A stretch of DNA of 40,946 nucleotides from Enterococcus phage vB_EfaS_785CS. A model generated the notes under the pieces. The model was not told the origin of the DNA. It saw only the letters and a program-made list of their open reading frames with translations, and did no database searches. The stretch is taken from the sequence record MZ182246.1. The stretch is one strand, 5' to 3'. Every line of letters begins with the position of its first letter. The stretch's first letter is position 1. This document shows positions 2,670-40,455 of the stretch, in pieces. Position numbers and translations under genes: made by a program.

Positions 2670-2881
2670 TGATTAAATTAGGATTATTATTACAACATAT
2701 TGAATTTGGGCGCACTGTTGTATTAGTAGAACACATGACAGAAAAAGATATTGTAACATTCACATTGACAGAAGAACTAGAATATACCAAAGAATATGAA
2801 AAAGTTGAACCACACCTAGGACGTGAGATAATGAATATTTCAACAACACCAGTTGGTGGACTATATATTGAAATTCTTTAA
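2669..2881 (+). CDS. hypothetical protein
   Basis: aaggaggaagaataATG, overlapping the stop of the previous gene. Confidence 0.55.
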   Translation: MIKLGLLLQHIEFGRTVVLVEHMTEKDIVTFTLTEELEYTKEYEKVEPHLGREIMNISTTPVGGLYIEIL

Positions 2882-2900
2882 AACTTTTTGAACAAAAGTG

Positions 2901-2929
2901 TTGACACCTACTATACCATGTGATATAGT
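2901..2929 (+). promoter_or_regulatory. sigma70-like promoter (TTGACA-N17-TATAGT) embedded in a palindrome
   Basis: ttgaca at 2901-2906, tatagt at 2924-2929. The spacer and -10 form the inverted repeat cacctactata / tatagtaggtg. Confidence 0.5.
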
Positions 2930-2958
2930 AGGTGTATAAGATAAAGGAGGAAAACAAA

Positions 2959-3036
2959 ATGGCACTATTTGGTTTAGTATTTGTAACAATTGGAATCTGG
3001 GGAACTTACAACATTATCAAGTATATTGAGGATTAG
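2959..3036 (+). CDS. small hydrophobic peptide (25 aa)
   Basis: aaaggaggaaaacaaaATG RBS. The peptide is MALFGLVFVTIGIWGTYNIIKYIED. It is below the ORF-track length cutoff. Confidence 0.3.
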   Translation: MALFGLVFVTIGIWGTYNIIKYIED

Positions 3037-3050
3037 GAGGTACAATAAAG

Positions 3051-3245
3051 ATGAGTAAGCTAAAAACATTTAAAGTAACATATGGAAATATAGAAAACAA
3101 GGTACAGCGTGCATATCTTAAAGCATATCACTATAATGAAGCGTTACGCAGAGCTAAGCGTATAAATGGTTTATATTGTATTATAAAATTGGAGGAAGTA
3201 GATAATGCCAGTAAAAACGAACTATTATATTTGTTTAACAAATAA
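3051..3245 (+). CDS. hypothetical protein
   Basis: ggaggtacaataaagATG RBS. Confidence 0.55.
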   Translation: MSKLKTFKVTYGNIENKVQRAYLKAYHYNEALRRAKRINGLYCIIKLEEVDNASKNELLYLFNK

Positions 3246-3429
3246 TGAACTATTCAGCTTATACACAGAAGAACCAATACTTGTAATGTATGAACAAGCG
3301 GTTGAAAATGATGAAAAATTATTGAAATTGGAAAAAGCAGAAGCAATTGAAATTGATGGTGAAATGCAATACACATTTATCACCATTCCATTAGATTCAA
3401 TATTATATGTATTGGAGGACGCAAAATGA
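3205..3429 (+). CDS. hypothetical protein
   Basis: ggagga at 3191-3196, 8 nt before the ATG at 3205. It overlaps the 3' end of the previous ORF in another frame. Confidence 0.5.
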   Translation: MPVKTNYYICLTNNELFSLYTEEPILVMYEQAVENDEKLLKLEKAEAIEIDGEMQYTFITIPLDSILYVLEDAK

Positions 3430-3584
3430 TTAAATTATTAAAAGCAATCGCATTCGCACTATTGGTAACATTAGGAATCGCACTACCACTAGCGTTTGTA
3501 TTTATTATCTATATGTCATATGTAACTGCTGGCTGGGCTGGTATTTGGTTAATGTTAATTGTTCTATATATTATGATTAAATAG
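3426..3584 (+). CDS. small membrane protein (52 aa)
   Basis: ggaggacgcaaaATG RBS, hydrophobic throughout. It is not in the ORF track because it is shorter than 60 aa. Confidence 0.4.
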   Translation: MIKLLKAIAFALLVTLGIALPLAFVFIIYMSYVTAGWAGIWLMLIVLYIMIK

Positions 3585-3595
3585 GAGGAATAGTA

Positions 3596-3817
3596 ATGAA
3601 GAAAGATGTAGGTACGTTTTGGAAATTTGAAAATGATTCATGGTACTTCTTTATTATTGGTAGTTTTGAAGATGAAGTTAGTGTATGTGCAATTGACACT
3701 TCAAACAATCAAATTAGTTTTATGATGATGAACCACGAACAAACAATTGACTTTATACCAAGTGATAATTTTGAAATGAATAACTACCTGATTGAGGTGA
3801 TGGGAAAATATGAGTGA
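3596..3817 (+). CDS. hypothetical protein
   Basis: taggaggaatagtaATG RBS. Confidence 0.55.
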   Translation: MKKDVGTFWKFENDSWYFFIIGSFEDEVSVCAIDTSNNQISFMMMNHEQTIDFIPSDNFEMNNYLIEVMGKYE

Positions 3818-4028
3818 TTCAGTGAAGGTTATTGGCTCAATTTGGGCTTCAACTGATGGTCTAAATATTTACAGAATTGACCAGATAGACACACGTGGTT
3901 ATTTTATCACATTGTTAGATAATGAAATAAACATGGTTTCTAAAGCATGGATACACAAGCAAGCTACAATGTGTGACACAAAAGCAACCAAAGCACAGAA
4001 ACAACAATTTAAGGAGGAAGCAAAATGA
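3810..4028 (+). CDS. hypothetical protein
   Basis: Translationally coupled ORF. Confidence 0.5.
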   Translation: MSDSVKVIGSIWASTDGLNIYRIDQIDTRGYFITLLDNEINMVSKAWIHKQATMCDTKATKAQKQQFKEEAK

Positions 4029-4222
4029 GTAAATTAGATGCATTATTAGTGGCACTTGTATTGGTAGGGACAGCAAGTGGAATAGTGATTTCAGCAATGA
4101 TTGTAATTTCAGTTCTAATGGTATTGAAGCCAATTACATGGGTTGTACTTGGATTAGGTGCATTACTAACTATCATGATTGGTATTGGTATATACCTATT
4201 TGAGAAACATTATCTAAATTAA
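4025..4222 (+). CDS. small membrane protein (2 TM)
   Basis: aaggaggaagcaaaATG RBS, hydrophobic 65 aa. Confidence 0.55.
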   Translation: MSKLDALLVALVLVGTASGIVISAMIVISVLMVLKPITWVVLGLGALLTIMIGIGIYLFEKHYLN

Positions 4223-4238
4223 ATATGTTATGATAAGG

Positions 4239-4287
4239 GAGAAAGTTAAATAAAACAGTTGACTTTCTCTTTTTTACATGGTATATT
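4239..4287 (+). promoter_or_regulatory. terminator hairpin (gagaaagt..actttctc + T7) overlapping a promoter (TTGACT-N17-TGgTATATT)
   Basis: Stem at 4239-4246 and 4262-4269 followed by a T-run at 4270-4276. ttgact at 4259-4264, tatatt at 4282-4287. Confidence 0.5.
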
Positions 4288-4316
4288 AATGTCATAAGAT
4301 ATTAGGAGGAATAATA

Positions 4317-4871
4317 ATGGTAAATGAATTACAAAAAGTTGAATATGACCAACCAGTTGAATTAAGCTTTATCAGCACGCTTGAAAAGACTTTGACACCA
4401 AGTAAGCAATATATCAAAGCATTGAAGGACTACGAAAAGGACCACAAAGAGTGGGAAGTGGACTTCAAAAATGGAGATGTGGCTAAGAATGCAGAACCAC
4501 AACGACCAGAACCAACATATGATGGCTTAAACGCAGAAGCCTTAGCTGTTCACATGGCTAAGGTGTTGCCAGTACACGCAAGTTCTACAATTGGTTTACC
4601 AGTGGTTTATAATCATGACACACAAATTTATGAGGTGTCAGAGGATAATTTAGAAGCCCGTTTATGGCAAAAGCTTTATAATGAGTTTATGATGGTATAC
4701 ACACCACATTATGCAGAAAATGCAAAGGTTGCTAACCAATTTAGAAATGCAGTCCAAAGAATGGCAAAAAATGCGCTTGCTTCTGGTGCTAACTTACCAT
4801 TAATGACAAAATGGACCCAAATAAGATTGCATTTAAAAATGGGACATATCGCTTTAAAGAGGACACATTAA
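4317..4871 (+). CDS. N-terminal portion of a P4/D5-type primase-helicase protein (reading frame a)
   Basis: Strong RBS (attaggaggaataataATG). It ends in a frame that overlaps the next ORF by 60 nt. Confidence 0.5.
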   Translation: MVNELQKVEYDQPVELSFISTLEKTLTPSKQYIKALKDYEKDHKEWEVDFKNGDVAKNAEPQRPEPTYDGLNAEALAVHMAKVLPVHASSTIGLPVVYNHDTQIYEVSEDNLEARLWQKLYNEFMMVYTPHYAENAKVANQFRNAVQRMAKNALASGANLPLMTKWTQIRLHLKMGHIALKRTH

Positions 4872-5902
4872 AACCAACGGTAAAAGAGGACTACCAAACA
4901 ACAAGAATTGAATATGATTATATTGATAATCCTAAACACAATATCGTTGCTGAATGGATTGAGTACATTTTAGAAGAGGACGCAAAAACACTATTTCAAT
5001 TGATTGGACGTATTTTCTACCGCAACCAAGACCCACAAGCAATGGTATTTGCAACTGGTGAAGGTAGTAACGGTAAATCGCATGTAATGAGCTTCATTGA
5101 GGACCTAGTAGGTAAATCAAATACAAGTCATGCAACACTAGCCAGCTTATCAGGTAATAATGACAAATTCGCAAGCTCTCAATTATTTGGTAAAATGGTA
5201 AATATTGAAACTGATATGCCAGCGCAACACATTAAGCAAACAGGTACACTGAAAACATTGTCAGGTAATGACGTAATGAGTGCAGAGTATAAAGGTATTA
5301 ACAAGTTCACATTTACGAACTACGCACTAATGATTTTCACAACTAATAACATGCCTACTTTTTCAGATACTTCACATGGTTTCTTGCGCCGTATTATCAC
5401 GCTTCCATTTAACAAGACCATGGGAAGAGATAACCCAACAGATTCAATGTGGCTAGAACGTTCAAAGAATTTCACATATGAAGAAAAGTCAGAGTTTATC
5501 AGCTACTGTCTGCAACAATATAGAAATGTATTGTTTGGGCTAAATGGAGAAACAAAAGGGCAGTTCTGGACCAGTGATAATGCAAATAAATTACGTGACG
5601 CATTTATCCAAGGAAATGACACAATGGCTAACTTTATTGAATTGAATGAACTTGAATTTACAAACAATATTGATGATGTAATTCCAAATACAGAATTATT
5701 AGAAGCATATAACACTATGTTACGTGAAGAGAATCTAATGGAAGTATCAGCCAAGAAGTTCATTCCAGAATTGAAACGTAAAGCACAATCAGAAAACATT
5801 ATTCTTAGTGTAATTACTAAGCGTGTTGATGGAAGAGTACAACGTTGTACAACTAACGTGAGATGGAAAACCAATACCTCTGAAACAGATAATATTTTTT
5901 AA
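4811..5902 (+). CDS. phage/plasmid primase P4-family C-terminal (D5-like) P-loop NTPase domain protein (reading frame b)
   Basis: IAFKNGTY...FATGEGSNGKSHVMSFIE (Walker A GxGxNGKS), DTD/TGTLKTLSGNDVMSAEYKG and FLRRIITLPF blocks are typical of primase_Cterm/D5 N-terminal plus P-loop proteins. There is no RBS before the ATG at 4811. Confidence 0.7.
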   Translation: MDPNKIAFKNGTYRFKEDTLKPTVKEDYQTTRIEYDYIDNPKHNIVAEWIEYILEEDAKTLFQLIGRIFYRNQDPQAMVFATGEGSNGKSHVMSFIEDLVGKSNTSHATLASLSGNNDKFASSQLFGKMVNIETDMPAQHIKQTGTLKTLSGNDVMSAEYKGINKFTFTNYALMIFTTNNMPTFSDTSHGFLRRIITLPFNKTMGRDNPTDSMWLERSKNFTYEEKSEFISYCLQQYRNVLFGLNGETKGQFWTSDNANKLRDAFIQGNDTMANFIELNELEFTNNIDDVIPNTELLEAYNTMLREENLMEVSAKKFIPELKRKAQSENIILSVITKRVDGRVQRCTTNVRWKTNTSETDNIF

Positions 5903-8238: not shown

Positions 8239-8394
8239 GTGAAAGTTATAGATATTGCAACAGGTGAGTGTAATGTTTATGATTCAATAACGGAATGTGA
8301 AAGACAGACAGGAGTTAATAGAGGAACTATTTGGAATTGTCTAAAAGGTAGACGAAAACAAGCAGGAGGGTACGTATTCAAATATGCAAACTAA
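8239..8394 (+). pseudogene. decayed C-terminal remnant of a NUMOD4/HNH_3 homing endonuclease
   Basis: Open frame with no start codon. It translates to VKVIDIATGECNVYDSITECERQTGVNRGTIWNCLKGRRKQAGGYVFKYAN, which matches the C-terminal DNA-binding tail of the intact HNH genes at 19804-20334 and 39943-40455 (…IKAIDI.NGE.NEY.S..ECAR.L.L…I..CL.G.R...GGY.F.Y). Confidence 0.55.
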
Positions 8395-11073: not shown

Positions 11074-11275
11074 CATGCATATGTTTAGAAAATTGTTCCC
11101 AAACGGTTGGGTTGTTGATGTAAAGCACAACCCAGATGGATTTGGTGAGATGTATACTACAAACTACCCCTATTCAGTAATTACCTACAAACGTGACACT
11201 GGTTTCACGAAATTCGTAAACATTGAAAAACCAAGTGAAGTATTCCAATACATTGCAGAAGTACAAAAATGGTAA
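11066..11275 (+). CDS. hypothetical protein
   Basis: Start chosen at the ATG at 11066 (ggaga 10 nt upstream) rather than the track's 11024. Confidence 0.45.
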   Translation: MNNMHMFRKLFPNGWVVDVKHNPDGFGEMYTTNYPYSVITYKRDTGFTKFVNIEKPSEVFQYIAEVQKW

Positions 11276-11378
11276 ACAAAAAAAAAAGCCAACTCATAAG
11301 AGTTGACCTAAGATAGTTGAAGGTGGGAGGAATCACCTTTGCTATAAATATATTATAACATAAAATTAAAGTTTTGTG

Positions 11379-12639: not shown

Positions 12640-13158
12640 ATGAAAGAAGAATGGATAGATATTAAAGGATATGAGGGTTTATATCAGGTTAGTAACTTAG
12701 GTAGAGTTAAAAGTTTAAAAAGAACAACTAATAATTATTCATGTTATACTGACAAGATATTAAAACCCTCGTTTAATAAGAAAGGTTATTTACAGTTACA
12801 CTTATGTAAAGATAAATGTAATAAGACATGTAGAGTTCACCGCCTAGTAGCAGAAGCATTTATACCAAACCATGAAAATAAACAACAAGTAAACCATATT
12901 GATGAAGATAAAACAAATAACGTGGTTTCAAATCTTGAATGGGCTACAACCAAAGAGAATGTAAACCACGGTACAAGAACATCAAGGATGGTTATCACTA
13001 ATTCAATACCAATAGTAGCAATCAAAGATAATATAAAACTAGAATTTAAAAGTCAAAAACATTGTGCGATAGAACTTGGATTGTCAACAGGACATATCAG
13101 CCAATGTTTGAGTGGAAAAAGAAAAACACATGGAGGTTGGAAATTTGAGCGGATTTAA
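12640..13158 (+). CDS. HNH homing endonuclease (NUMOD4 + HNH_3)
   Basis: WIDIKGYEGLYQVSNLGRVKS (NUMOD4). VHRLVAEAFIPN...VNHIDEDKTNNVVSNLEWAT..EN (HNH_3). Confidence 0.85.
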   Translation: MKEEWIDIKGYEGLYQVSNLGRVKSLKRTTNNYSCYTDKILKPSFNKKGYLQLHLCKDKCNKTCRVHRLVAEAFIPNHENKQQVNHIDEDKTNNVVSNLEWATTKENVNHGTRTSRMVITNSIPIVAIKDNIKLEFKSQKHCAIELGLSTGHISQCLSGKRKTHGGWKFERI

Positions 13159-17177: not shown

Positions 17178-18137
17178 ATGAAGAACATTGCAGAATTTAA
17201 AAATGCACCAGAACTAGCTGAAAAACTATTGGAAGTATTCAGTAACTTAAAAGGTAATTCACGAAGTCTTGACCCTATGAGAGCTGGTCAACATGATGTG
17301 GTTGTGATTGAATCAACTGAAAAGTTATCAGCAAAAGGAAAAGAAATGAAAGTAGTTAAAATGCGCTCACTAGAAGATGGTAGGGACGTTACAAGCTACA
17401 TCATGAAGTTTCGCAAATATGACTGGGATAAATGGAAAAATGTTGAAGTTGGTGACCGTTTATTGATTGATTTGAAGTTCAGTAATGGTTTTGCTACAGT
17501 AAAACCAATCAGAAGTATTTCAAGTGGTAATGTTGTACCATTTAAACCAAGTGAACCATTAACAAAGCAAACCATTTTATTATTTGATATTGAGATTTTT
17601 AAACATGACAGTTTATTTGTATTTCGTGATTACTTTACCAAAGAATGGGTTATCATTAATAACAACCTTGACGAATTACGCAAGTTTTACCTTGAATACC
17701 GTGATTCAATGTTTATTGGGTATAATAATGCGTCATATGACAACAATGTAATGCGTGGGTATCTACAAGGCAAAAATGCTTATCAGATGTCTAAGGCAAT
17801 TATTGAATCAGATAATAGAGGTCTAGTTTACAAAATGTTTGATAGTCATAAAACACCACTTTTTGGTATGGACCTATATCAAGATAACAAAGGTTTTAGC
17901 TTAAAAGAACATTCAGCATTCTTAGGCATCAACATTAAAGAAACAGAAGTAGACTTTGATATGGATAGACCATTGACAGAGGAAGAAAAAGCGAAAAACA
18001 TTGCATACTGTAAAAATGATGTATTAGCAACTGAAAAACGTTTTGAACAAAACATAAGTATGTTGTTAGCTAAAGCAACTATTGCTTTAATGTTTGACAT
18101 GGATAAGACAGACTTATTACAACCAATGCTAACTTAA
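17178..18137 (+). CDS. family-B DNA polymerase, N-terminal and 3'-5' exonuclease part
   Basis: Exo I LLFDIEIF, Exo II GYNNASYDNNV, Exo III YCKNDVLATE. Confidence 0.7.
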   Translation: MKNIAEFKNAPELAEKLLEVFSNLKGNSRSLDPMRAGQHDVVVIESTEKLSAKGKEMKVVKMRSLEDGRDVTSYIMKFRKYDWDKWKNVEVGDRLLIDLKFSNGFATVKPIRSISSGNVVPFKPSEPLTKQTILLFDIEIFKHDSLFVFRDYFTKEWVIINNNLDELRKFYLEYRDSMFIGYNNASYDNNVMRGYLQGKNAYQMSKAIIESDNRGLVYKMFDSHKTPLFGMDLYQDNKGFSLKEHSAFLGINIKETEVDFDMDRPLTEEEKAKNIAYCKNDVLATEKRFEQNISMLLAKATIALMFDMDKTDLLQPMLT

Positions 18138-19803: not shown

Positions 19804-20334
19804 ATGAAAGAACACTGGAGAGATATTAAAGATTATGAAGGGTTATATCAGGTTAGTGACTTAGGTAGAGTGAAAAGATGTAAAGGTAGTTATTCGCGGT
19901 CAGAACGGATTTTGAAACCACAGTTTAATAACCATGGTTATCTGCGTGTACACTTATATAAAAATAATAAACCAACGCACATTAGAGTTCACCGTTTAGT
20001 AGCAGAAGCATTCATACCTAACCTAGAAAACAAACCAGAGGTAAACCATCTTGATGAAGATAAAACAAACAACATGGTCTCTAATCTTGAATGGTGTACA
20101 AGAAACGAGAATGTAAATCACGGAACACGTAATAAAAGAATTTCAAAGAAACTTAAAGTAATATCTAAGGGAACCAAAATCAAAGCTATAGATATAGCAA
20201 ACGGCGAATGGAATGAGTATTGCTCAATTAGAGAATGTGCGAGACAGTTAGAGCTTGATTCGTCCAATATCAGAAAGTGTTTAAACGGTGAACGCAGACA
20301 CACTGGTGGGTATATGTTTGAATATTTAGAATAA
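19804..20334 (+). CDS. HNH homing endonuclease (NUMOD4 + HNH_3)
   Basis: WRDIKDYEGLYQVSDLGRVKR. VHRLVAEAFIPN..VNHLDEDKTNNMVSNLEW. Confidence 0.85.
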   Translation: MKEHWRDIKDYEGLYQVSDLGRVKRCKGSYSRSERILKPQFNNHGYLRVHLYKNNKPTHIRVHRLVAEAFIPNLENKPEVNHLDEDKTNNMVSNLEWCTRNENVNHGTRNKRISKKLKVISKGTKIKAIDIANGEWNEYCSIRECARQLELDSSNIRKCLNGERRHTGGYMFEYLE

Positions 20335-24411: not shown

Positions 24412-25977
24412 CTATAAATATCTTTCATTTACTGAAACATTAACTACTGGGGTCAATGCAAAATCAGAATAAACTGGTTTTATTACTGTTTCACCAATTG
24501 GTAATACAAATTTCTCCCAGTCGTTACCTAGTGTGTTTAGTGTTCCGTTTGGTGTTCCATTAACGTAAAGCGTACGTGTTGCTGTGTCAATTGTTACTTG
24601 GTCACCGTTTTGGAATACGTTTTTCACATCTTGTAGATATGGTGTATCTTTCCAACGCATTTTAGCATCTGAAATATCCATTAATATATGCAGATTTGAG
24701 CGCCATCTTTGAAACCAAGTTCCGAACTCGTAAATCTGTTGTGTGTTTTTTTCATTAAGCGTATACTTATATTCATCTTTCTTGACAACATTGTCAAACT
24801 GATTAATTGATTTGATTGAACACAAGCGCCATACTAGTTTATCACCTAAGCGTTCTAAGTTGATTTCTCGCCACCCATTGCCAAATTTCTTTTTATCAAA
24901 TGTTTGGGTGTGAATTACTTTACCTTGGTATACAATCTCAATCAAGATGTTATCGCTGGTTGTTGTTGAATCACGGAATACTGCACCCATTACATACTCA
25001 CCAGCTGTATCTACAAGGTTAAATTCAACACGTCCCATTGCTTGTGGTGAATATGAATACTTGAAGTTGAAACGTATGTTTGCTGTAAAGTTTAATGTTC
25101 TGTCATTGGTTGAACTTGGTGGTATAACTGCAACCATGCTTGGTCCATGCCAGTATTGGTCATTTGCGCTACCAAAAACAGGTGTGGCACTATTTGGGTC
25201 TAGTGTCATATCTATTGTACCATCAAATATGTTAGGTTTATTAATATCACCACCATAGTTTGGATAGCTTGAAACGAACCCCTCGTTAATTCTAAAGTCA
25301 TCTAATGGTTTGTTACCCCAAAAGTCCCACCACTTAACTGTTTCTACCTTTGTCTTTTCAATATAATCTTTTTCAGCTGGGTAACCAAACTGTAAAACAT
25401 TTCCTTTACCATCAACTAAACCACAGAATGCGTTATCACTATTCATTTTAAATGTGTATGTTGGATATGATTTGTAAGTTCCTTTGTTTTGAATTGTGAT
25501 GTTTTCAGTGTATTGGAATTCTGATGGAACGTACTGCCCTGTTGTTTCTGGGTTTAAATACATGTAAGGTCTAGCATATGCAACGCTAAACTCACTACCA
25601 AAAGCGGAATACTGGAAGTTAATTCCTTTTACATTAGGCGATTCAAGCTTAATGTCTAAATAGAAGTGGGTCCATTCTGTAGTCCCTTTAGGAATATCTC
25701 TAGTGTGTCGTTTCAAGATTCTAAGTGGTGCATCTCCCCATTCTTCTACTACAATTCTTCCAGCAATGTCTGCATCATCTGAATCAACAAAGCCTTTAAA
25801 TGTAATACCAGCAACAACCCTGTCACCTACTTTTAAATCAGGAATCATTCTTCTGGTATACTGGTTCATTTGAAACCACGCTTGACCTTCCGTTCCTGTC
25901 TTAAGATATTCAAAAGGTACACCACTTGTAAAGTCTGCACCAATAACTGTGCTTCCTAATCTTTTTTCTGGTAACAC
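24412..25977 (-). CDS. tail tip/baseplate component (Dit-like region)
   Basis: 521 aa. The internal ITIQNKGTYKSYPTYTFKMNSD...GNVLQFGYP block resembles the galectin-like part of siphovirus distal tail proteins. Confidence 0.45.
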   Translation of the reverse strand: MLPEKRLGSTVIGADFTSGVPFEYLKTGTEGQAWFQMNQYTRRMIPDLKVGDRVVAGITFKGFVDSDDADIAGRIVVEEWGDAPLRILKRHTRDIPKGTTEWTHFYLDIKLESPNVKGINFQYSAFGSEFSVAYARPYMYLNPETTGQYVPSEFQYTENITIQNKGTYKSYPTYTFKMNSDNAFCGLVDGKGNVLQFGYPAEKDYIEKTKVETVKWWDFWGNKPLDDFRINEGFVSSYPNYGGDINKPNIFDGTIDMTLDPNSATPVFGSANDQYWHGPSMVAVIPPSSTNDRTLNFTANIRFNFKYSYSPQAMGRVEFNLVDTAGEYVMGAVFRDSTTTSDNILIEIVYQGKVIHTQTFDKKKFGNGWREINLERLGDKLVWRLCSIKSINQFDNVVKKDEYKYTLNEKNTQQIYEFGTWFQRWRSNLHILMDISDAKMRWKDTPYLQDVKNVFQNGDQVTIDTATRTLYVNGTPNGTLNTLGNDWEKFVLPIGETVIKPVYSDFALTPVVNVSVNERYL

Positions 25978-26051
25978 TTTTACCCAAGGTTTTAAATACT
26001 GGTTAATCTTAGTGAACTCACTATCATAGATTAAATTAATATTACCACTTT

Positions 26052-26492
26052 TTACATTTGTAAACCCAGCTGGTTTATAGCATGCGCCAATCCATCAGGT
26101 ACATCAAACACTAATGTAAATGGTGTATACTTTGTGTCTGTTGCATCATACTCTTGTGTTCCACTGTAGATAGCATTGAAATACCTATCTGGAAATAAAT
26201 CTAAGATAAGTCTTTTTGGTTCATCACTGTTTATTATCTTGACTAATTCATCCTTTGTTTCTGAAACAGTCATACCACTATTGTCTGAAATGATGAAACC
26301 ATCAATGCTAATACTGTAGTCACCTAGTTTACTGTTTCTGAAATGTTTGCCATCAGTGTTGCCTACTGTGAAAAAGTCGTTATCTTTTGATAAAAAAGGT
26401 ATGTTCACTTTGGCTATTTGAAATAAGTGTGTTGTTTCCTTACCATCAAAGGTAAAGCTTCTTAAAAAATCATAATTTTCAGCCATTCTCAT
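26052..26492 (-). CDS. distal tail protein (Dit) N-terminal belt-domain-like protein
   Basis: 146 aa. LILDLFPDRYFNAIY and FTLVFDVPDGLAH are consistent with the Sipho_tail N-terminal domain. Confidence 0.4.
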   Translation of the reverse strand: MRMAENYDFLRSFTFDGKETTHLFQIAKVNIPFLSKDNDFFTVGNTDGKHFRNSKLGDYSISIDGFIISDNSGMTVSETKDELVKIINSDEPKRLILDLFPDRYFNAIYSGTQEYDATDTKYTPFTLVFDVPDGLAHAINQLGLQM

Positions 26493-26526: not shown

Positions 26527-26572
26527 ACAAAAGACAACCCTTGTAAAGGGGTTGTCTTAATGTTTTTTAAAT
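26527..26572. terminator. bidirectional hairpin terminator after the tape measure gene
   Basis: Perfect 10-bp stem aagacaaccc / gggttgtctt with U-rich flanks on both strands. Confidence 0.5.
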
Positions 26573-28978
26573 TATACCCATGTTACGTCTTGCGTTACGT
26601 TCGTTCACTGCCTGTATAGCGTTTAGTTCCTTGTTCATTTTCTTACCGTCCAATACAATATCTGTATTTTTAGCTAAGATAGCTTGTAACAATTCGTTCT
26701 GTTGTTGCATTAAACCAACTAGTAACGCTATATCTTGTGATTCACCACTTCCACCAACATGGTTGCGTTCATCCTTAACCCCTAGCATTTGTTTAGCTTG
26801 GTTAAGTAATGCCATTGCTCTACCTCGTTTAGATGGTTCAGTAGGTATGATAACTTCTGGATAGCCATTTTCAGCTAGTGTTGCAATCTGTGGTGTTCTT
26901 GCAATACCTCCATTGAAGTATCCTCTGATACGGTGACCACGTGGACCCCAACCAGACTTACCATACTGTAAGTCATTTTCCCAGTTACTATTGTTGAAGA
27001 ATGCTAACAATTGGTGATAACCATTGTTAATGTTACCATAGCCCGGAACTTTGTAGGCATCAAACGTTTGTGGAATATATTGCAATAGTCCTCGTGCTGG
27101 GTTACCACTTAGTGTGTTAATGTCAACCACATCTGGACTTTGAACAATCTTTTCATTACCACCTGATTCACGCATTATTTGAGCAACTAAACCAGCTACC
27201 TGTGAACTACTGATTGATTGACCCATGTATTTAGCCGCCTTGCGGATAACTGGCGCCCAGTCACCACCAGCACCAGCGGATTCTTCTTCCTCTTTTTTCT
27301 TGAATAATGCTTTTACTTTTTCAGCAAATGCATGTGTTGCTTTACCACCTAAACCTTTTGCCATGTCAAGTGGGATGTGTGATAGTCCACCTAAGTCCAT
27401 TGCACCCATAATTGCGTTGCGTGCTAGGTCTAATGGTTTACCTACCCAGTCCATTACATCACTGATTGTTTCTTTTACCTTGTTGATTCCATTACCTACA
27501 AATGACTTGGTATTAGACCACATGTCTTTTACCCCATCCATGAAACCAGTTCCTTTTTTGTAGAACGGAACTCGCCCACGTTTACCTAAGAATGCGGATG
27601 TTTCATGTTCGTTTAATACATGTGTACCTTTAGGTGCGTTCATCAGTACGTTACGTCCTTTAGGTATCATTGCATTACCATCTGGTGTAATGACCATTTC
27701 AGCACCACCACCGTCATTGACAACCATTGGTCCACCTACGTGACCACCTGAACCAGTTCCTTGTTCGTACTGTGGTACATCCCATTTAGCAACTGTTGGC
27801 GCACCAAACTTTTCTAGTACCCAGTTAGCACCGCCAATAATACCATTTACTGGACCGCCAATTGCTCGTAGTACACCGTTGAAAATACTCTTGAATGCAT
27901 TAGTAATTGCACCAGCACCGTTCTTCACTGCTCTTACCATTTGGTTTGGTAGGTCAGCAAACCAGCCTGAAACTGTTTTAATACCTGTACTAAATGTGTT
28001 CTTAATTCCATTCCAAAGGTTACGGATAGTGTTACTTACTAGGTTTTTCATAGTGTTAGCAATACCACTGATACCATTCTTGAATCCATCAAAGATGTTT
28101 TTAGCACCATTTGCGCCACTACTAAAGAAATTCTTGATACCATTCCACATGTTACTTACTGTGTTCTTGATTGCATTGTTGAAGTTATTTGCGATACCTT
28201 TGATACTTCCACCAAACTTGTCAAATAATGCACCCGCACTACTACCACCGCTTGTAAAGAAGTTCTTAACAGCATCCCACATTCCTTTGATTGTACCTTT
28301 TACTGATGTTCCTAGTCCTTTAACACCTTTGAAAATCTTACCAATGAACATGATGTTGAACCATTCCCAAACAGCTTTGATACCACCAAAGAAAATACGT
28401 TTGATAGCGTCCCACAGTCCAGTAAAGTCACCAGTTAGCACCATTGAGAATACATCAATAATACCTGTGATAGCGTCTACCATTCCATCAATGAAGCCCA
28501 CAACTGATTTTACAAATGATTTCAAAATCTCAATTGCAATAGCAAATATTGGTTTCAATAGTGTAAGTAGGTTCATAATTGCCTTACCAATACGGTCACC
28601 GTTCTGGTCCCACCAATTGCTTATTTTGTCAAATATCTTACCTAATGCTTCTGCTAACTCTTGAATAATTGGCATAATCATTGGTAGTAGTTCTTTTACA
28701 AAGAAGTCTAATACTATTTTGAAAATCTTTTGAGCGCCACCAAGTAACTTAGTGATTGCTTTTAAGGCTTTGTCAATTAATGGTATAATTGTTGGTATAA
28801 CCTCAACTGTGATAAAATCAACTACTTTTGTTAATGTTTCAAAGAAACCAGCTGGTGTACCGTCACCAGTACCAAAAGTAAACGCATTTTTGATGTAATC
28901 TTTAAATCTTCCAAGTGATTCTTTAATACCTACAATAGCATTAGATACAGTTTTCATTTTTTTTATCTGATAAACCAA
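26567..28978 (-). CDS. tail tape measure protein, C-terminal part with lytic transglycosylase (SLT) domain
   Basis: Gly-rich internal repeats (GIKNFFSSG..). SLT block ESGGN...GLLQY. No RBS before either candidate start. Confidence 0.7.
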   Translation of the reverse strand: MVYQIKKMKTVSNAIVGIKESLGRFKDYIKNAFTFGTGDGTPAGFFETLTKVVDFITVEVIPTIIPLIDKALKAITKLLGGAQKIFKIVLDFFVKELLPMIMPIIQELAEALGKIFDKISNWWDQNGDRIGKAIMNLLTLLKPIFAIAIEILKSFVKSVVGFIDGMVDAITGIIDVFSMVLTGDFTGLWDAIKRIFFGGIKAVWEWFNIMFIGKIFKGVKGLGTSVKGTIKGMWDAVKNFFTSGGSSAGALFDKFGGSIKGIANNFNNAIKNTVSNMWNGIKNFFSSGANGAKNIFDGFKNGISGIANTMKNLVSNTIRNLWNGIKNTFSTGIKTVSGWFADLPNQMVRAVKNGAGAITNAFKSIFNGVLRAIGGPVNGIIGGANWVLEKFGAPTVAKWDVPQYEQGTGSGGHVGGPMVVNDGGGAEMVITPDGNAMIPKGRNVLMNAPKGTHVLNEHETSAFLGKRGRVPFYKKGTGFMDGVKDMWSNTKSFVGNGINKVKETISDVMDWVGKPLDLARNAIMGAMDLGGLSHIPLDMAKGLGGKATHAFAEKVKALFKKKEEEESAGAGGDWAPVIRKAAKYMGQSISSSQVAGLVAQIMRESGGNEKIVQSPDVVDINTLSGNPARGLLQYIPQTFDAYKVPGYGNINNGYHQLLAFFNNSNWENDLQYGKSGWGPRGHRIRGYFNGGIARTPQIATLAENGYPEVIIPTEPSKRGRAMALLNQAKQMLGVKDERNHVGGSGESQDIALLVGLMQQQNELLQAILAKNTDIVLDGKKMNKELNAIQAVNERNARRNMGII

Positions 28979-30938
28979 GCATGTCTAGGTCAACTAATCC
29001 TTTGCCTTCCCATGCTGATTTAAAGTTATAACCCCATGATTTTAACCCACTAAATGCTGATTTGAATTGGTTTACTGCTGAATCAATTCTATTGATACCC
29101 TTAGCGTCTAAGCCAAGTGCGCCAACGTTGATAATACCTTCACCTTTCCAGATGCGTTTAATGTTTTCTGCCCACATGCCCACTTTTTTACCAAAGTCTG
29201 ATAAGTAACCCCACGCTTCACCTGTAACTTTTCCAAATACATCAAAGGTACCCTTGAATAGCTTACCAACCCATGAAAGGTTTTTGGCTAATTCAGGTAG
29301 GCTGTCACCTAATCCACCCAAGAAAGCTTCAAACCTTTTACCTGTGTTTGTTATCTGCTCTTGGAAAGATGGTAGACCCATTTTCTCTAGTGATTTGTTT
29401 AGTCCTTCAATCATCTTAGCTGTACCACGCGTAACAGCTGACTTCATGTTGGCTATTGCAGTACCAAAACCTTGTGTGCTATCTTTAGCTATCTTTTCTA
29501 ATGACTTAAGACCGCCACCACCTTCTTTATCCATTTTAACTAAGGCGTCTTGGAACTGTCTTACTGATATGCTACCTGATGACAATCCTTCTTTTAATGC
29601 CCCTGTTGTCATGCCCATTTCTTTAGCTAAGGCATTAAGGGTAGGTCCTAAACCACTGTTAATCATTGAGTTCCACGTTTGCGCATCTACCTTACCATTT
29701 GAGAACGATTGAGATAACTGAACAACCGCGCTGTCAACCATTTGGGCATCTCCGCCAAAACCTAGGATAGCATCATTCATTGCCTTAAATACGTCAACGG
29801 ACAATCCCATGTCGTCAGTTGAAGCTGTTAATAATTGCACGTTACTCACTGCACTGTCTAAGGCTGTTGGTAAACCACGTGTTGCCTCTTGTAACTTATC
29901 CATGTTCTTAGTGATGTCTTTTGTAGCTACACCCATGTTCTCAAATGCACGTGTACTATTGTTTAATGTATCAATCCTATTTAATGCACCATCAATAGAT
30001 GATTTAACAGTATCAAACGCTTTTGAACCAATGTTTGCAACTGCACCTAATGCGCCAGCACCTAAGAATATACCTACACCTTTTGTTGCTGAACCAATAG
30101 CAGAACCAATCTTGCCAAATCCTGACTTGATAGAACTACCTACACCAGAAGCTGTCTTTTTAAGTGATGAAAACACACCATCTAACTTACTAGCACTTGA
30201 ACTAGCTTCTTTTGATTCTGTACTTACACCCTTCATTGCTTTTTCTGTTTCTTTTAGTTCATCACCTAAAGCATCCACATTCTTTTCACTTTTGCGTGCT
30301 TCATTTGCGTATGCTTGTAGTTTTTGCTGTGCTTCTTTTACCTCTGTTGAGTTAGCACCATACTTCTTAGTTAACTGTGTGACCTCATTTGACTGTTCTC
30401 TGACAGCCTTGTTCATTATCTCTAGGTTGCGTCGTTGACCCTCTTGTTTTGCCTTAACAACGTCTATCTCTGTACCGTGTTTTTTGGCAATAGCAACTTC
30501 TTTTTCTGTTGCCTTGTTATTAGCTTCAACTTGTCTACCGTATTTACTTGAAGAAACCACTTGTTTCTCTAGTGCTGTTGTTGTTTTTGATAACTGTTGG
30601 TTGTATGCATTATACTTAGCTGTTGATTGATTAATTTTAGTGTTAAGATTGTCAACTTGCTTAGATTCAGCACCATATTTCTGAATGGCTTCATCTCTGC
30701 GCTTTTGTAAAATCTTAATCTTTTGTTCTTCTAACCCCATTACTGTGTTTAAGTCTTTTGTTTTTTGACTTAAACCTTGCATACTCTTACCACCGTCATC
30801 AAAAGCCTTTGCATTTGCACGCATAGCACTTTCAGCTTGTCGCATTTTACTTTGCAACTGGTCAAGTGTTTTAATGGTATTATCTACACCCTCAACACCT
30901 ATACCAAACTTCATGTTACCAATTGGTTTATCTGCCAT
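28941..30938 (-). CDS. tail tape measure protein, N-terminal part
   Basis: Coiled-coil Q/K/E-rich sequence typical of TMP N-termini. RBS aaaggagaacttgaataATG. Confidence 0.75.
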   Translation of the reverse strand: MADKPIGNMKFGIGVEGVDNTIKTLDQLQSKMRQAESAMRANAKAFDDGGKSMQGLSQKTKDLNTVMGLEEQKIKILQKRRDEAIQKYGAESKQVDNLNTKINQSTAKYNAYNQQLSKTTTALEKQVVSSSKYGRQVEANNKATEKEVAIAKKHGTEIDVVKAKQEGQRRNLEIMNKAVREQSNEVTQLTKKYGANSTEVKEAQQKLQAYANEARKSEKNVDALGDELKETEKAMKGVSTESKEASSSASKLDGVFSSLKKTASGVGSSIKSGFGKIGSAIGSATKGVGIFLGAGALGAVANIGSKAFDTVKSSIDGALNRIDTLNNSTRAFENMGVATKDITKNMDKLQEATRGLPTALDSAVSNVQLLTASTDDMGLSVDVFKAMNDAILGFGGDAQMVDSAVVQLSQSFSNGKVDAQTWNSMINSGLGPTLNALAKEMGMTTGALKEGLSSGSISVRQFQDALVKMDKEGGGGLKSLEKIAKDSTQGFGTAIANMKSAVTRGTAKMIEGLNKSLEKMGLPSFQEQITNTGKRFEAFLGGLGDSLPELAKNLSWVGKLFKGTFDVFGKVTGEAWGYLSDFGKKVGMWAENIKRIWKGEGIINVGALGLDAKGINRIDSAVNQFKSAFSGLKSWGYNFKSAWEGKGLVDLDMLGLSDKKNENCI

Positions 30939-31521
30939 TATTCAAGTTCTCCTTTCGCTCTAGCCATCTCTGCTGGTGATAATACTGAACCAAAGAATGA
31001 CATAGGGTCTTGCTTCTTCTCTTTTTTAGGGGCTTTCTGATTGTTAAATAAATCTAAAAGAAAGTAGTAATCAGAATTGTTTATCTCTGATAAACTCCAA
31101 TTACCACTTTCTAATAGTTGTCTATATAAGTCATCAAAGTTTTCTAACTGTTCTGTGAATGACGTATTTTCTAATTCTTTTAACTCATCAGCCCCTAGGC
31201 TTTTTTTCCTTCGTCATTGCTTCCCATTGCATTTGAGAAAATATCTTCAATCGTAGGCATTAGGTCATCAGCTGTAATTGAATCTTGAATTGCATCAAAT
31301 GTAACACGTGGGTCCATGAACATATCAGCTACTAATTGAATCATTTCATCAATCATTTGTAATTCTGACATTTCAACTTCACCAGCTTCAACTTTTTCAA
31401 CTGTTGCATGGAATTTAATTAGTTCACGCATTGAACGAGTTGAAATTGATTTTTGTTTGACTGTAAAACTTTTTCCTTCTTCATTTTGTAGTGTAATTTT
31501 AATCATAATTGATTCCTCCAA
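30938..31521 (-). CDS. tail assembly chaperone G-T fusion via programmed -1 frameshift
   Basis: The heptamer A AAA AAA (forward T7 at 31201-31207) sits 3 codons before the G stop. The -1 frame is open for 85 codons with no stop and ends at TAA overlapping the tape measure ATG (taATGg). Confidence 0.65.
31195..31521 (-). CDS. tail assembly chaperone (gpG-like)
   Basis: 108 aa acidic protein between the major tail and tape measure genes. It ends at the slippery run GGA AAA AAA GCC TAG. Confidence 0.7.
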   Translation of the reverse strand: MEESIMIKITLQNEEGKSFTVKQKSISTRSMRELIKFHATVEKVEAGEVEMSELQMIDEMIQLVADMFMDPRVTFDAIQDSITADDLMPTIEDIFSNAMGSNDEGKKA

Positions 31522-31627: not shown

Positions 31628-31691
31628 CAATTCAATTGTTGCTGATGTTTCAGCTGGTGTCACCTGTCCTACCACAGGTGGCGTACTAGGG
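31628..31691. repeat. 64-nt repeat element, copy A, at the 3' end of the major tail protein gene
   Basis: Identical except for one base to 34014-34077. It contains the hairpin cacctgt..acaggtg. Confidence 0.85.
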
Positions 31692-33743: not shown

Positions 33744-33944
33744 TTATCCAGCTGTTGCAGTTGTAGTGAATGCTGGTACATCTACTTTACTAGACTCGGG
33801 TTTTCCATCTTCAATAGCTGTTACTTGAAAATCACCTTTACTATATGGTGTTTCTGCTGTTAAACCAGTGATTGTTACTGGTGAGGGTTGTCCAGTCACA
33901 ATCTTTTCACCTGTTTTCTTGTATACGTTAAATACTTTAGCCAT
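33744..33944 (-). CDS. small Ig/FN3-like domain protein
   Basis: PVTITGLTAETPYSKGDFQVTAIEDGKPES resembles an FN3/Big strand pattern. It has its own RBS (aaaggagagtgtaaattATG). Confidence 0.4.
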   Translation of the reverse strand: MAKVFNVYKKTGEKIVTGQPSPVTITGLTAETPYSKGDFQVTAIEDGKPESSKVDVPAFTTTATAG

Positions 33945-34000: not shown

Positions 34001-34013
34001 AGTGTTTACGATA

Positions 34014-34077
34014 ATTCAATTGTTGCTGATGTTTCAGCTGGTGTCACCTGCCCTACCACAGGTGGCGTACTAGGGTG
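34014..34077. repeat. 64-nt repeat element, copy B, at the 3' end of the major capsid gene
   Basis: See copy A. Confidence 0.85.
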
Positions 34078-39942: not shown

Positions 39943-40455
39943 TTAATTCACCTCCTTATATTGGAATACGTACCCCCCAGTCTGTCTTAGTTTACCGTGT
40001 AAACAGTTACTGATATTACCTTGACTAAGACCTAACCTTCTTGCACATTCACCCATTGACGGATACTCATTGCACTCACCACTTGTAATATCTATTGCTT
40101 TGATTTTGGTACCTTGAGATATCATCATTCTTTCAGTACGTGTTCCGTGATTATTATTTTCTTTAGGTGTAACCCATTCCAGGTTAGAGACCATGTTGTT
40201 TACTTTGTCTTCATCAATATGATTCACTTGTGGTTTATTTTCAGGGTTTGGTATGAAAGCTTCTGCTACTAATCTGTGGATTTTAAAATGTTTAGGTTTG
40301 TTATGTTTACATAAACGAACATCCCTATAACCATCCTTATCTACACATGGCTTCAAAATCCGTTCTGACTTATATTTAAAGCTTTTAACCCTTCCTAAAT
40401 TACTAACCTGATAATCTCCTTCATACCCTTCAATATCTTTCCAAATTTCAATCAT
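39943..40455 (-). CDS. HNH homing endonuclease (NUMOD4 + HNH_3)
   Basis: WKDIEGYEGDYQVSNLGRVKS. IHRLVAEAFIPN..VNHIDEDKVNNMVSNLEW. Confidence 0.85.
   Translation of the reverse strand: MIEIWKDIEGYEGDYQVSNLGRVKSFKYKSERILKPCVDKDGYRDVRLCKHNKPKHFKIHRLVAEAFIPNPENKPQVNHIDEDKVNNMVSNLEWVTPKENNNHGTRTERMMISQGTKIKAIDITSGECNEYPSMGECARRLGLSQGNISNCLHGKLRQTGGYVFQYKEVN

What the first reader, a model, noticed from the sequence alone, without database searches (positions are those of the whole stretch)
28941..28978. Tape measure protein encoded in two overlapping frames joined at an A8 homopolymer
The N-terminal TMP ORF (665 aa) and the C-terminal ORF carrying the Gly-rich repeats and the lytic transglycosylase domain (803 aa) overlap by 38 nt in different frames. 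The second ORF has no Shine-Dalgarno sequence, although most genes in this genome have a near-perfect one. The mRNA overlap reads ..CAG AUA AAA AAA AUG AAA ACU.. (forward T8 at 28958-28965). Removing one A, or a +1/-2 slip on this run, fuses the frames into a single TMP of about 1465 aa: ...LSDKK|MKTVSNAIVG... Possible explanations are a homopolymer sequencing or assembly error, a genuine inactivating mutation, transcriptional slippage on the A-run, or a real two-part TMP.
Basis: seen in the sequence. Interest (0 to 1): 0.55.

Follow-up and report, generated by a model that had tools for sequence, protein, structure and literature searches.

The report
Tape measure gene split by sequencing error
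The two overlapping "tape measure" reading frames are one ordinary 1456-residue phage tail-length gene broken by a single extra A in this database record. This is almost certainly a sequencing or assembly error, because a near-clonal sister record and about 58 related phage records carry the gene intact.

Summary
ORF1 (28941..30938, minus strand, 665 aa) and ORF2 (26567..28978, minus strand, 803 aa) overlap by 38 nt. ORF2 lies in the +1 frame, and the junction is an A8 run (T8 on the plus strand at 28957-28964, one base off the stated position).

It is not a biological split and not a recoding site. Exact protein look-ups identify the window as Enterococcus phage vB_EfaS_785CS (genus Efquatrovirus). 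Its sister record vB_EfaS_785CC is identical in all 9 intact proteins whose paired accessions could be seen. It encodes a single 1456-aa tape measure protein that equals the window's sequence with one A removed (...LSDKKMKTVS...).

All other aligned relatives read GAY GAA AAA ATG (G+A6, in frame). 58 of 60 listed records have one base fewer than the window.

The same record carries three more frame-breaking 1-nt deletions in short runs, in the primase (4800), the DNA polymerase (18121) and Dit (26072). The primase and polymerase are intact in the sister record.

ORF2 has no Shine-Dalgarno sequence. No RNA structure follows the run. The run is not conserved.

A 96%-identical relative has a 156-kDa TMP and a 219-nm tail, and 1456 x 0.15 nm = 218 nm.

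Verdict: a homopolymer indel artefact (about 0.88). A real recent A7-to-A8 mutation is a minor alternative. Interest is low.

The parts
26567..30938 (-). The whole tape measure protein gene. It reads as one 4371-nt ORF (1456 aa) once one A is removed from the run at 28957-28964.
   Evidence: The repaired translation is identical to QVU02028.1 of sister phage vB_EfaS_785CC. With E660 instead of K660 it is identical to the LY0322/ZXL/EF326P1 TMP. Four 99.9%-identical phages annotate a single 4371-nt CDS here. The intact protein aligns to PHROG 167 (tail length tape measure, 1555 positions) in one stretch, residues 1-1218 to profile positions 4-1197, which crosses the junction.
28941..30938 (-). 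ORF1 as it stands in the record (665 aa). TMP residues 1-660 are followed by five out-of-frame residues (NENCI) and UAA.
   Evidence: Pfam TMP_3 E = 6e-28. tblastn with the LY0322 TMP: residues 1-660 at 99.85% in frame -1. Annotated as QVU02096.1 'tail tape measure'.
28957..28964 (-). A8 homopolymer (T8 on the + strand) and the site of the one-base excess. The sister record implies A7 (GAT AAA AAA ATG). All other relatives have G+A6 (GAY GAA AAA ATG).
   Evidence: The only differences between the window TMP and the LY0322 TMP are one substitution at 29136 (gene position 1803, a third codon position), G->A at 28963, and the extra A.
26567..28978 (-). ORF2 as listed (803 aa from TTG). The biologically meaningful part begins at Met661 (ATG 28955-28957) and forms the C-terminal 796 residues of the TMP, carrying the W/F-periodic repeats and the GH23-like lytic transglycosylase region.
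   Evidence: tblastn with LY0322 TMP residues 659-1456 at 99.9% in frame -2. No SD upstream. Annotated as QVU02095.1, 796 aa. Matches PHROG 167 at E = 1.2e-185, with the best stretch ending at profile position 1538.
18121..18122 (+). Supporting evidence for an error-prone record: A2 where all relatives have A3. This splits the 763-aa DNA polymerase into 319 + 428 aa.
   Evidence: All 40 listed relatives span 201 nt for the window's 200. The repaired protein equals 785CC QVU02019.1 and the LY0322 polymerase.
4800..4801 (+). Supporting evidence: T2 where LY0322 has T3. This splits the 528-aa D5/P4-type primase into 184 + 363 aa.
   Evidence: The repaired protein equals 785CC QVU01992.1.
26072..26073 (-). 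Supporting evidence: G2 on the + strand (C2 in the sense strand) where relatives have 3. This splits the 693-aa distal tail protein Dit into 146 + 521 aa.
   Evidence: All 28 fully aligned relatives span 201 nt for the window's 200. The repaired protein equals LY0322 Dit. The 521-aa fragment is annotated in both 785CS and 785CC.

Best explanation
The window is the GenBank record of the virulent Enterococcus faecalis siphophage vB_EfaS_785CS (genus Efquatrovirus). Like all its relatives, it has one tape measure gene of 4371 nt (1456 aa, about 156 kDa). The gene lies between the tail assembly chaperone and Dit.

In the 785 lineage a real G-to-A change (E660K) lengthened an A6 run to A7. In the 785CS record this run was written with one A too many (A8). 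That shifts the frame, creates a stop 5 codons later, and leaves the C-terminal 796 residues as an apparent second ORF with no ribosome-binding site.

The extra A is most likely a base-calling or assembly error at a homopolymer. The phage itself most likely makes a single full-length TMP that sets a tail length of about 218 nm.

Shown: the anatomy of the junction, the intact gene in the sister record and in relatives, and the other indels in this record.
Inferred: that the extra A is absent from the physical phage DNA.
For: 1. Identity of the record. Exact look-up gives QVU02096.1 and QVU02095.1 of vB_EfaS_785CS on a 40,946-bp contig.
2. Sister record. The window TMP minus one A is exactly QVU02028.1 (1456 aa) of vB_EfaS_785CC. 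The large terminase, portal, lysin, helicase, primase/polymerase, DUF1351 protein, a hypothetical protein, the methylase and Tal are identical in the two records, each with paired accessions.
3. Relatives. 11 of 11 aligned relatives read GAY GAA AAA ATG in frame. 58 of 60 listed phage records are one base shorter than the window across the junction. All 7 IMG/VR matches carry the in-frame 7-nt insert. Four 99.9%-identical phages annotate one 4371-nt CDS.
4. Other errors in the record. A genome-wide tblastn scan finds exactly four frame-split genes (primase, DNA polymerase, Dit, TMP), each at a 1-nt indel in a base run. The polymerase and Dit indels are unique against 40 of 40 and 28 of 28 relatives. 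The polymerase and primase are intact in 785CC. A plaque-forming lytic phage cannot lack all of these.
5. Translation signals. ORF2 and the other three second halves have no SD, while most genes have 5-6/6 matches to AGGAGG.
6. Single family profile. The intact TMP aligns to PHROG 167 in one stretch that crosses the junction (residues 1-1218 to profile positions 4-1197). More distant homologues (35-63% identity) are single chains of 1270-1350 aa, many carrying both TMP_3 and SLT.
7. Tail length. In vB_EfaS-271 (TMP DNA 96% identical, single 4371-nt CDS) the tail measures 219 nm. The 156-kDa TMP was detected with 44 peptides and 78.6% coverage (PMC7503890). 1456 x 0.15 nm = 218 nm.
Against: - No reads are available, so the extra A cannot be shown directly to be absent from the phage DNA.
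- The Dit frameshift is annotated in both sister records. At least one frame-breaking indel is therefore reproducible. It is either a systematic error or real, and this slightly weakens the argument that frameshifts in this record must be errors.
- Relative to most relatives the junction differs by two changes (G->A plus +A), not by a plain length miscall. This is explained only because the sister record shares K660.
- A second phage record, AUEF3, is frameshifted at the same run in the other direction. That could hint at a real mutational hotspot.
- The sequencing platform of 785CS is unknown. No paper was found.
Confidence: 0.88

Rival explanations
1. A real, recent frameshift mutation. Replication slippage on the lineage-specific A7 run produced A8 in the sequenced 785CS stock, either fixed or as the majority variant. 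Enough full-length TMP for plaque formation would be restored by RNA polymerase slippage (loss of one A in some transcripts) or by ribosomal +1/-2 slippage of tRNA-Lys on A AAA AAA A.
For: - A7/A8 runs are intrinsically mutable, and both frames stay fully open and undecayed.
- tRNA-Lys can re-pair perfectly after a +1 or -2 shift on the run (sequence).
- Only a few TMP copies are needed per virion (general knowledge).
- AUEF3 carries an independent indel in the same run.
- The Dit frameshift shared by both sister records shows that not every indel here is a one-off miscall.
Against: - The same record has additional unique frame-breaking deletions in the DNA polymerase and primase at non-slippery sites (TTAC-AACC, CCA-TTAATG). 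These cannot be rescued by slippage and are absent from the near-clonal sister record. The record therefore demonstrably contains indel errors.
- A8 is below the run length (about 9 or more) at which bacterial RNA polymerase slips efficiently. This rests on my own knowledge of transcriptional slippage studies.
- There is no downstream structure (z = -0.15).
- Long A runs are otherwise avoided in this genome.
Confidence: 0.08
2. An evolved recoding site. The TMP is normally decoded through a programmed +1/-2 ribosomal frameshift or programmed transcriptional slippage at the A-run. This would give a short 665-aa product and a full-length product in a set ratio, by analogy with the G/GT chaperone.
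For: Only the local anatomy: a homopolymer at the frame junction, an overlap of two long ORFs, and no SD for ORF2.
Against: - The site is not conserved. Every other relative examined has G+A6 with the two halves in one frame, and the near-clonal sister has an intact ORF.
- There is no stimulatory RNA structure.
- By contrast, the genuine -1 slippery site of the chaperone gene 2 kb upstream is 100% conserved in 6 relatives.
Confidence: 0.01
3. A genuinely two-part tape measure. An N-terminal 665-aa protein and a C-terminal protein of about 796 aa are made separately and assemble non-covalently.
For: The record annotates two 'tail tape measure' proteins. AUEF3 is also annotated as two CDS with an ATGA stop/start overlap at the same place.
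Against: - There is no SD before either possible ORF2 start.
- The split is absent from 58 of 60 related records and from the sister record.
- AUEF3 is a draft 'partial genome' with an assembly gap, and its split is a 1-nt loss from one of about six A6 runs in the gene.
- The measured tail length in the genus fits the full 1456 aa.
Confidence: 0.01

Closest known systems
Homopolymer-length indel errors in phage genome assemblies (typical of flow-based and nanopore sequencing), which produce artificially split genes
   Same: - A one-base length change inside a base run.
- It is unique to one record while a near-clonal sister and relatives are intact.
- Several long essential genes in the same record are broken in the same way.
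- The downstream halves have no translation signals and no sequence decay.
   Different: The platform and the reads for this record are unknown, so the error is inferred and not observed. One of the four indels (Dit) is shared with the sister record.
Single-chain siphophage tape measure proteins with a C-terminal GH23 lytic transglycosylase, as in the TMPs of Efquatrovirus (LY0322, vB_EfaS-271, Abitsa) and PHROG 167
   Same: - The repaired gene is 99.9-100% identical to annotated TMPs.
- It has the same position between the chaperone and Dit.
- It has an N-terminal coiled coil plus the TMP_3 domain, and a C-terminal SLT-like RESGG...GLLQY region.
- Its length predicts the measured tail length.
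   Different: Nothing beyond the E660K substitution shared with 785CC and the extra A in the record.
Programmed -1 frameshift of tail assembly chaperones (lambda gpG/gpGT type)
   Same: It lies in the same gene module and is also an A-run. The real example sits in this window at GGA AAA AAA GCC UAG (31201-31207).
   Different: The chaperone site is conserved in all relatives checked, shifts -1, and lies at the 3' end of a short gene. The TMP run is unique to one record, needs +1/-2, and lies mid-gene.
Transcriptional slippage on A/T runs (for example bacterial IS elements, Thermus dnaX) and ribosome sliding on poly(A) lysine tracts
   Same: A run of A's at the junction of two overlapping frames. 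Loss of one A in the mRNA would restore the frame.
   Different: Known functional sites are conserved and usually 9 nt or longer. This one is 8 nt and absent from relatives, where the gene is simply in frame.

Membership tests
Single-chain siphophage tape measure protein (PHROG 167 / Pfam TMP_3 + SLT) | The two ORFs are co-linear, non-overlapping parts of one family profile | tested here: met
   ORF1 matches PHROG 167 positions 4-669. ORF2 matches the same profile at E = 1.2e-185, with its best stretch at 1298-1538. The intact sister protein aligns 1-1218 to 4-1197 in one stretch across the junction.
Single-chain siphophage tape measure protein (PHROG 167 / Pfam TMP_3 + SLT) | Orthologues in close relatives are one uninterrupted ORF | tested here: met
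   There is a single 4371-nt CDS in LY0322, EF326P1, ZXL, KEN07 and vB_EfaS-271. 58 of 60 records are in frame at the junction. The sister 785CC TMP is 1456 aa.
Single-chain siphophage tape measure protein (PHROG 167 / Pfam TMP_3 + SLT) | Gene position between the tail assembly chaperone and the distal tail protein | tested here: met
   Phage_TAC_19 lies upstream at 31195-31521. Sipho_tail/Dit lies downstream at 24412-26492, followed by Prophage_tail/Tal.
Single-chain siphophage tape measure protein (PHROG 167 / Pfam TMP_3 + SLT) | Protein length proportional to tail length (about 0.15 nm per residue) | not testable with these tools
   No measurement exists for 785CS itself. In the relative vB_EfaS-271 the tail is 219 nm, against 218 nm predicted for 1456 aa (PMC7503890).
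Programmed ribosomal frameshift / programmed transcriptional slippage site | Slippery run and out-of-frame arrangement conserved among relatives | tested here: not met
   All other relatives read GAY GAA AAA ATG with both halves in one frame. The sister record is in frame.
Programmed ribosomal frameshift / programmed transcriptional slippage site | Stimulatory element downstream (stable hairpin or pseudoknot) or an upstream SD-like stimulator | tested here: not met
   The 107 nt downstream fold at -17.3 kcal/mol, z = -0.15 against shuffles. There is no SD-like motif within 20 nt upstream.
Programmed ribosomal frameshift / programmed transcriptional slippage site | Both the short and the long product are made and needed | not testable with these tools
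   This needs proteomics of 785CS virions or infected cells.
Homopolymer sequencing/assembly indel artefact | The indel is a one-base length change inside a base run | tested here: met
   A8 against the inferred A7. The other record-specific indels are T3->T2, A3->A2, G3->G2 and C2->C1.
Homopolymer sequencing/assembly indel artefact | Absent from an independent sequence of the same or a near-clonal genome | tested here: met
   785CC shares identical proteins in 9 of 9 intact genes whose paired accessions could be seen, and it has an intact TMP, polymerase and primase.
Homopolymer sequencing/assembly indel artefact | Other frame-breaking indels in essential genes of the same record | tested here: met
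   The primase, DNA polymerase and Dit are each split by a 1-nt deletion.
Homopolymer sequencing/assembly indel artefact | Read pileup shows length heterogeneity or supports the shorter run | not testable with these tools
   No reads or platform information are available. No publication was found.

The most novel reading that the evidence does not exclude
The A-run at TMP codons 659-661 may be a genuine mutational hotspot in Efquatrovirus. On this reading, 785CS (+1) and AUEF3 (-1) are real length variants, kept viable by low-level transcriptional or ribosomal slippage. This would amount to phase-variable or hypomorphic control of tape measure supply.
Probability: 0.03. Interest if true: 0.5.

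Novelty: not a real feature. Interest (0 to 1): 0.07.

Why it matters
If the reading here is right, the practical value is curation. The public record of vB_EfaS_785CS carries at least three or four artificial frameshifts (TMP, DNA polymerase, primase, probably Dit). These have already spread as fragment proteins in NCBI and UniRef, and the 785CS fragment has been used as an annotation source in another paper (PMC12033158).

The case also gives a clean rule of thumb: a slippery-looking homopolymer at an ORF junction should be checked for conservation before recoding is proposed. In this same tail module the genuine chaperone -1 site is perfectly conserved, and the TMP run is not.

If the extra A were real, it would be a rare natural example of an essential structural gene kept alive by slippage. 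The evidence does not point that way.

Tried and rejected
- I guessed that the window might be the type phage IME-EF4, which was sequenced on Ion Torrent. This is rejected: IME-EF4 is 40,713 bp (PMC4445525), and exact protein look-up gives vB_EfaS_785CS.
- I tried to obtain 785CC DNA. It is not in the 'phages' collection (best hit for the left arm is 96.3%), and the look-up of encoding contigs has no record for the shared Tal protein. The comparison with 785CC therefore rests on exact protein matches only.
- A metagenome scan for any length variant of the junction found nothing. The viral-contig scan found only the in-frame form.
- Literature searches for 785CS/785CC found no describing paper and no platform information. 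The two Efquatrovirus papers searched for 'frameshift' (PMC10194240, PMC13517437) do not contain the word. A general search on TMP, homopolymer and frameshift gave nothing relevant.
- A PDB sequence search with the C-terminal lytic region gave no significant hit (E = 0.63 to another TMP). NCBIfam gave only the tape_meas_nterm domain and coiled-coil noise.
- I considered the AUEF3 coincidence as evidence for a hotspot. It is weak: the gene has about six A6 runs, so a second homopolymer error landing on the same run has a chance of about 1 in 6. AUEF3 is also a gapped draft.
- Dorscht et al. 2009 (PMC2786548), on Listeria phage frameshifts, is not held in the library.
Full report
**1. The observation.**
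On the minus strand the window has an ORF of 665 aa (28941..30938, ATG start) and an ORF of 803 aa (26567..28978, TTG start). They overlap by 38 nt.

The overlap contains an A8 run in the mRNA sense. This is T8 on the plus strand at 28957-28964, one base lower than the finder stated.

- ORF1 reads ...L S D K K N E N C I stop.
- ORF2 reads (L) V Y Q I K K M K T V S N....

ORF2 is therefore +1 relative to ORF1, and deleting one A gives ...LSDKKMKTVSNAIVG..., as the finder said. The repaired protein is 1456 aa, not about 1465.

Neither candidate start of ORF2 has a Shine-Dalgarno sequence. The best match to AGGAGG is 3 of 6, whereas most genes in the window have 5-6 of 6.

A8 runs are not frequent by chance. 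They are depleted: 2 loci, against about 20 matches expected in dinucleotide-preserving shuffles.

**2. What the region is.**
- ORF1 carries Pfam TMP_3 (E = 6e-28).
- Upstream lie the major tail protein and a Phage_TAC_19 chaperone.
- Downstream lie Dit (Sipho_tail, Dit-like CBM2, SPP1_Dit) and Tal (Prophage_tail).

The window is an Enterococcus faecalis siphophage of the genus Efquatrovirus. The TMP region is 99.9% identical to LY0322, EF326P1, ZXL and vB_Efs19_KEN07.

Exact protein look-up identifies the record as vB_EfaS_785CS (40,946 bp). Its two 'tail tape measure' proteins are QVU02096.1 (665 aa) and QVU02095.1 (796 aa).

**3. The junction in relatives.**
- The four 99.9%-identical phages annotate one CDS of 4371 nt (1456 aa).
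- In 11 of 11 aligned relatives the junction reads GA(T/C) GAA AAA ATG AAA ACT, that is D-E-K-M-K-T, a G followed by A6, with both halves in one frame.
- With a 200-nt query across the junction, 58 of the 60 listed phage records span 199 nt, one base fewer than the window. The other two are the GenBank and RefSeq copies of AUEF3.
- All seven IMG/VR matches to a length-tolerant pattern carry the 7-nt in-frame form. A metagenome scan found none.
- Across the whole 4.37-kb gene the window differs from LY0322 by only three changes: one substitution at gene position 1803 (a third codon position), G-to-A at 28963, and the extra A.
- Substitutions flanking the junction in more distant relatives are mostly synonymous in the ORF1 frame upstream and in the ORF2 frame downstream. 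That is the pattern expected of one continuous protein.

**4. The sister record.**
The repaired window TMP with K660 is exactly QVU02028.1, the 1456-aa 'tail tape measure' of vB_EfaS_785CC (40,956 bp). The repaired TMP with E660 is exactly the LY0322/ZXL/EF326P1 protein.

So G-to-A (E660K, A6 to A7) is a real change shared by the two 785 phages. Only the eighth A is peculiar to the 785CS record.

The two records are near-clonal. The large terminase, portal, lysin, helicase, primase/polymerase, DUF1351 protein, a 235-aa protein, the adenine methylase and Tal are identical, and each carries paired 785CC/785CS accessions.

**5. The record has other frame-breaking indels.**
A tblastn scan with all LY0322 proteins finds exactly four genes whose halves lie in different frames in the window.

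| Gene | Intact length | Fragments in window | Site | Change |
|---|---|---|---|---|
| D5/P4-type primase | 528 aa | 184 + 363 aa | 4800 | T3 to T2 |
| DNA polymerase | 763 aa | 319 + 428 aa | 18121 | A3 to A2 |
| Dit | 693 aa | 146 + 521 aa | 26072 | G3 to G2 |
| TMP | 1456 aa | 665 + 803 aa | 28957-28964 | extra A |

The run changes come, and the primase family assignment.

- At the polymerase site all 40 listed relatives have the extra base. At the Dit site all 28 fully aligned relatives have it.
- The repaired polymerase and primase are exactly the proteins annotated in 785CC.
- None of the second halves has an SD.

A lytic phage that forms plaques cannot lack its DNA polymerase, primase and tape measure at once. 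The record therefore contains indel errors, and the TMP run, the longest homopolymer in the gene, is the likeliest place for one.

One caveat: the 521-aa Dit fragment is annotated in both sister records. That indel is reproducible and could be either a systematic error or real.

**6. Tests of the recoding alternatives.**
- The run is not conserved.
- The 107 nt downstream have no unusual structure (z = -0.15).
- A8 is shorter than the runs on which bacterial RNA polymerase slips efficiently. This rests on my own knowledge.
- By contrast, the genuine -1 slippery site of the chaperone gene, GGA AAA AAA GCC UAG at 31201-31207, is 100% identical in six relatives, including the more distant AUEF3. 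Its -1 frame stays open up to the TMP start.
- Family-level evidence also points to a single chain. The intact protein aligns to PHROG 167 in one stretch across the junction. Homologues down to 35% identity are single proteins of 1270-1350 aa, many with both TMP_3 and SLT.
- In vB_EfaS-271 (TMP DNA 96% identical, one 4371-nt CDS) the tail is 219 nm. The 156-kDa TMP was detected with 44 peptides at 78.6% coverage (PMC7503890). 1456 x 0.15 nm = 218 nm, whereas 660 aa would give about 99 nm.

**7. AUEF3.**
This 2014 draft ('partial genome', with an assembly gap) reads GAC GAA AAA TGA, that is G+A5. It is annotated as two CDS with an ATGA overlap at the same run. Its polymerase, primase and Dit are intact.

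The TMP gene has about six A6 runs. A second homopolymer miscall at the same run is therefore only mildly surprising. I take it as a second artefact, but it keeps a small probability alive for a real hotspot.

**8. Verdict.**
The finding is an accurate reading of the sequence, but the split is almost certainly not biological. The best explanation is a one-base homopolymer over-call (A7 written as A8) in an error-prone record, with confidence about 0.88. A real recent A7-to-A8 mutation, partly rescued by slippage, stands at about 0.08. Programmed recoding and a true two-part TMP stand at about 0.01 each.

Novelty: not a real feature. Interest is low.

The most interesting things seen lie outside the finding. 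They are the shared CCC-UAG element after the capsid and tail-tube genes, and the Dit frameshift common to both sister records. Both are listed under things noticed in passing.

Noticed in passing
window 34013-34075 and 31629-31691 (minus strand): The major capsid gene and the major tail protein gene both end in CCC UAG, followed by the same roughly 57-nt sequence (63 nt, 1 mismatch). In the +1 frame it encodes STPPVVGQVTPAETSATIEL(T/S)-stop.

In diverged relatives (phiSHEF2, SANTOR1, phiSHEF5) the changes are largely synonymous in that +1 frame, including TCA>AGT (Ser>Ser). A hairpin (CACCUGU...ACAGGUG) lies 6 nt after the stop.

This looks like a 'CCC-stop' +1 programmed frameshift on both the capsid and the tail tube, as reported for Listeria phage PSA and the SPP1 tail tube (cited in PMC4759559; details from memory). 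It is not annotated in any relative I saw. The draft AUEF3 record has its assembly gap just downstream of the capsid-gene stop, and its record end just downstream of the tail-protein-gene stop, where these two copies are expected.
   Followed up: partly
window 31195-31521 and 30939-31207 (minus strand): This is the canonical tail assembly chaperone -1 frameshift. The slippery site is GGA AAA AAA GCC UAG (A7 at 31201-31207). The -1 frame continues ...KKSLGADELKELEN... for about 88 aa to the TMP start. The 90 nt around the site are 100% identical in six relatives. The frameshifted extension is not annotated in the relatives' records.
   Followed up: partly
window 26072-26073 (Dit, 24412-26492, minus strand): Dit is split into 146 + 521 aa by a 1-nt deletion (sense CCC to CC) that no other relative has. 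The 521-aa fragment is nevertheless annotated in both sister records, 785CS and 785CC. The indel is therefore either a reproducible systematic error or a real feature of this lineage.
   Followed up: partly
window 18121-18122 and 4800-4801 (plus strand): The DNA polymerase (763 aa) and the D5/P4-type primase (528 aa) are each split by a single-base deletion in a 3-nt run. Both are intact, and otherwise identical, in the sister record 785CC. The fragments are in NCBI and UniRef as separate proteins.
   Followed up: yes
L016/L018 (Enterococcus phage AUEF3, KJ127304.1) 2740-2750: The AUEF3 TMP is annotated as two CDS (767-2749 and 2746-5139) because the same run is one A shorter (GAC GAA AAA TGA). 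This gives an ATGA stop/start overlap exactly at Met661. The record is a gapped draft, and its other large genes are intact.
   Followed up: partly
window 12640-13158, 19804-20334, 39943-40455, and remnant 8239-8391: There are three paralogous HNH homing-endonuclease genes (55-63% identical to each other) plus a short remnant. The copy at 12640-13158 sits between two genes that are adjacent in LY0322, so endonuclease content is polymorphic between near-identical phages.
   Followed up: no
window 33744-33944 (minus strand): A 66-aa ORF with its own SD lies just after the capsid-gene element. Its sequence (..SPVTITGLTAETPYSKGDFQVTA..) looks like a small Ig/FN3-like domain. Its orthologue in vB_EfaS-271 (7.0 kDa, called 'major tail protein') was detected by MS at 94% coverage. 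A possible relation to the 21-aa +1 extensions was not examined.
   Followed up: no
window 11278-11287: An A10 run, the only other homopolymer of 8 or more in the window, lies just after the ORF ending at 11275, in a stretch only about 90% identical to LY0322. Runs of 8 or more A/T are about fivefold rarer than in shuffled sequence.
   Followed up: no
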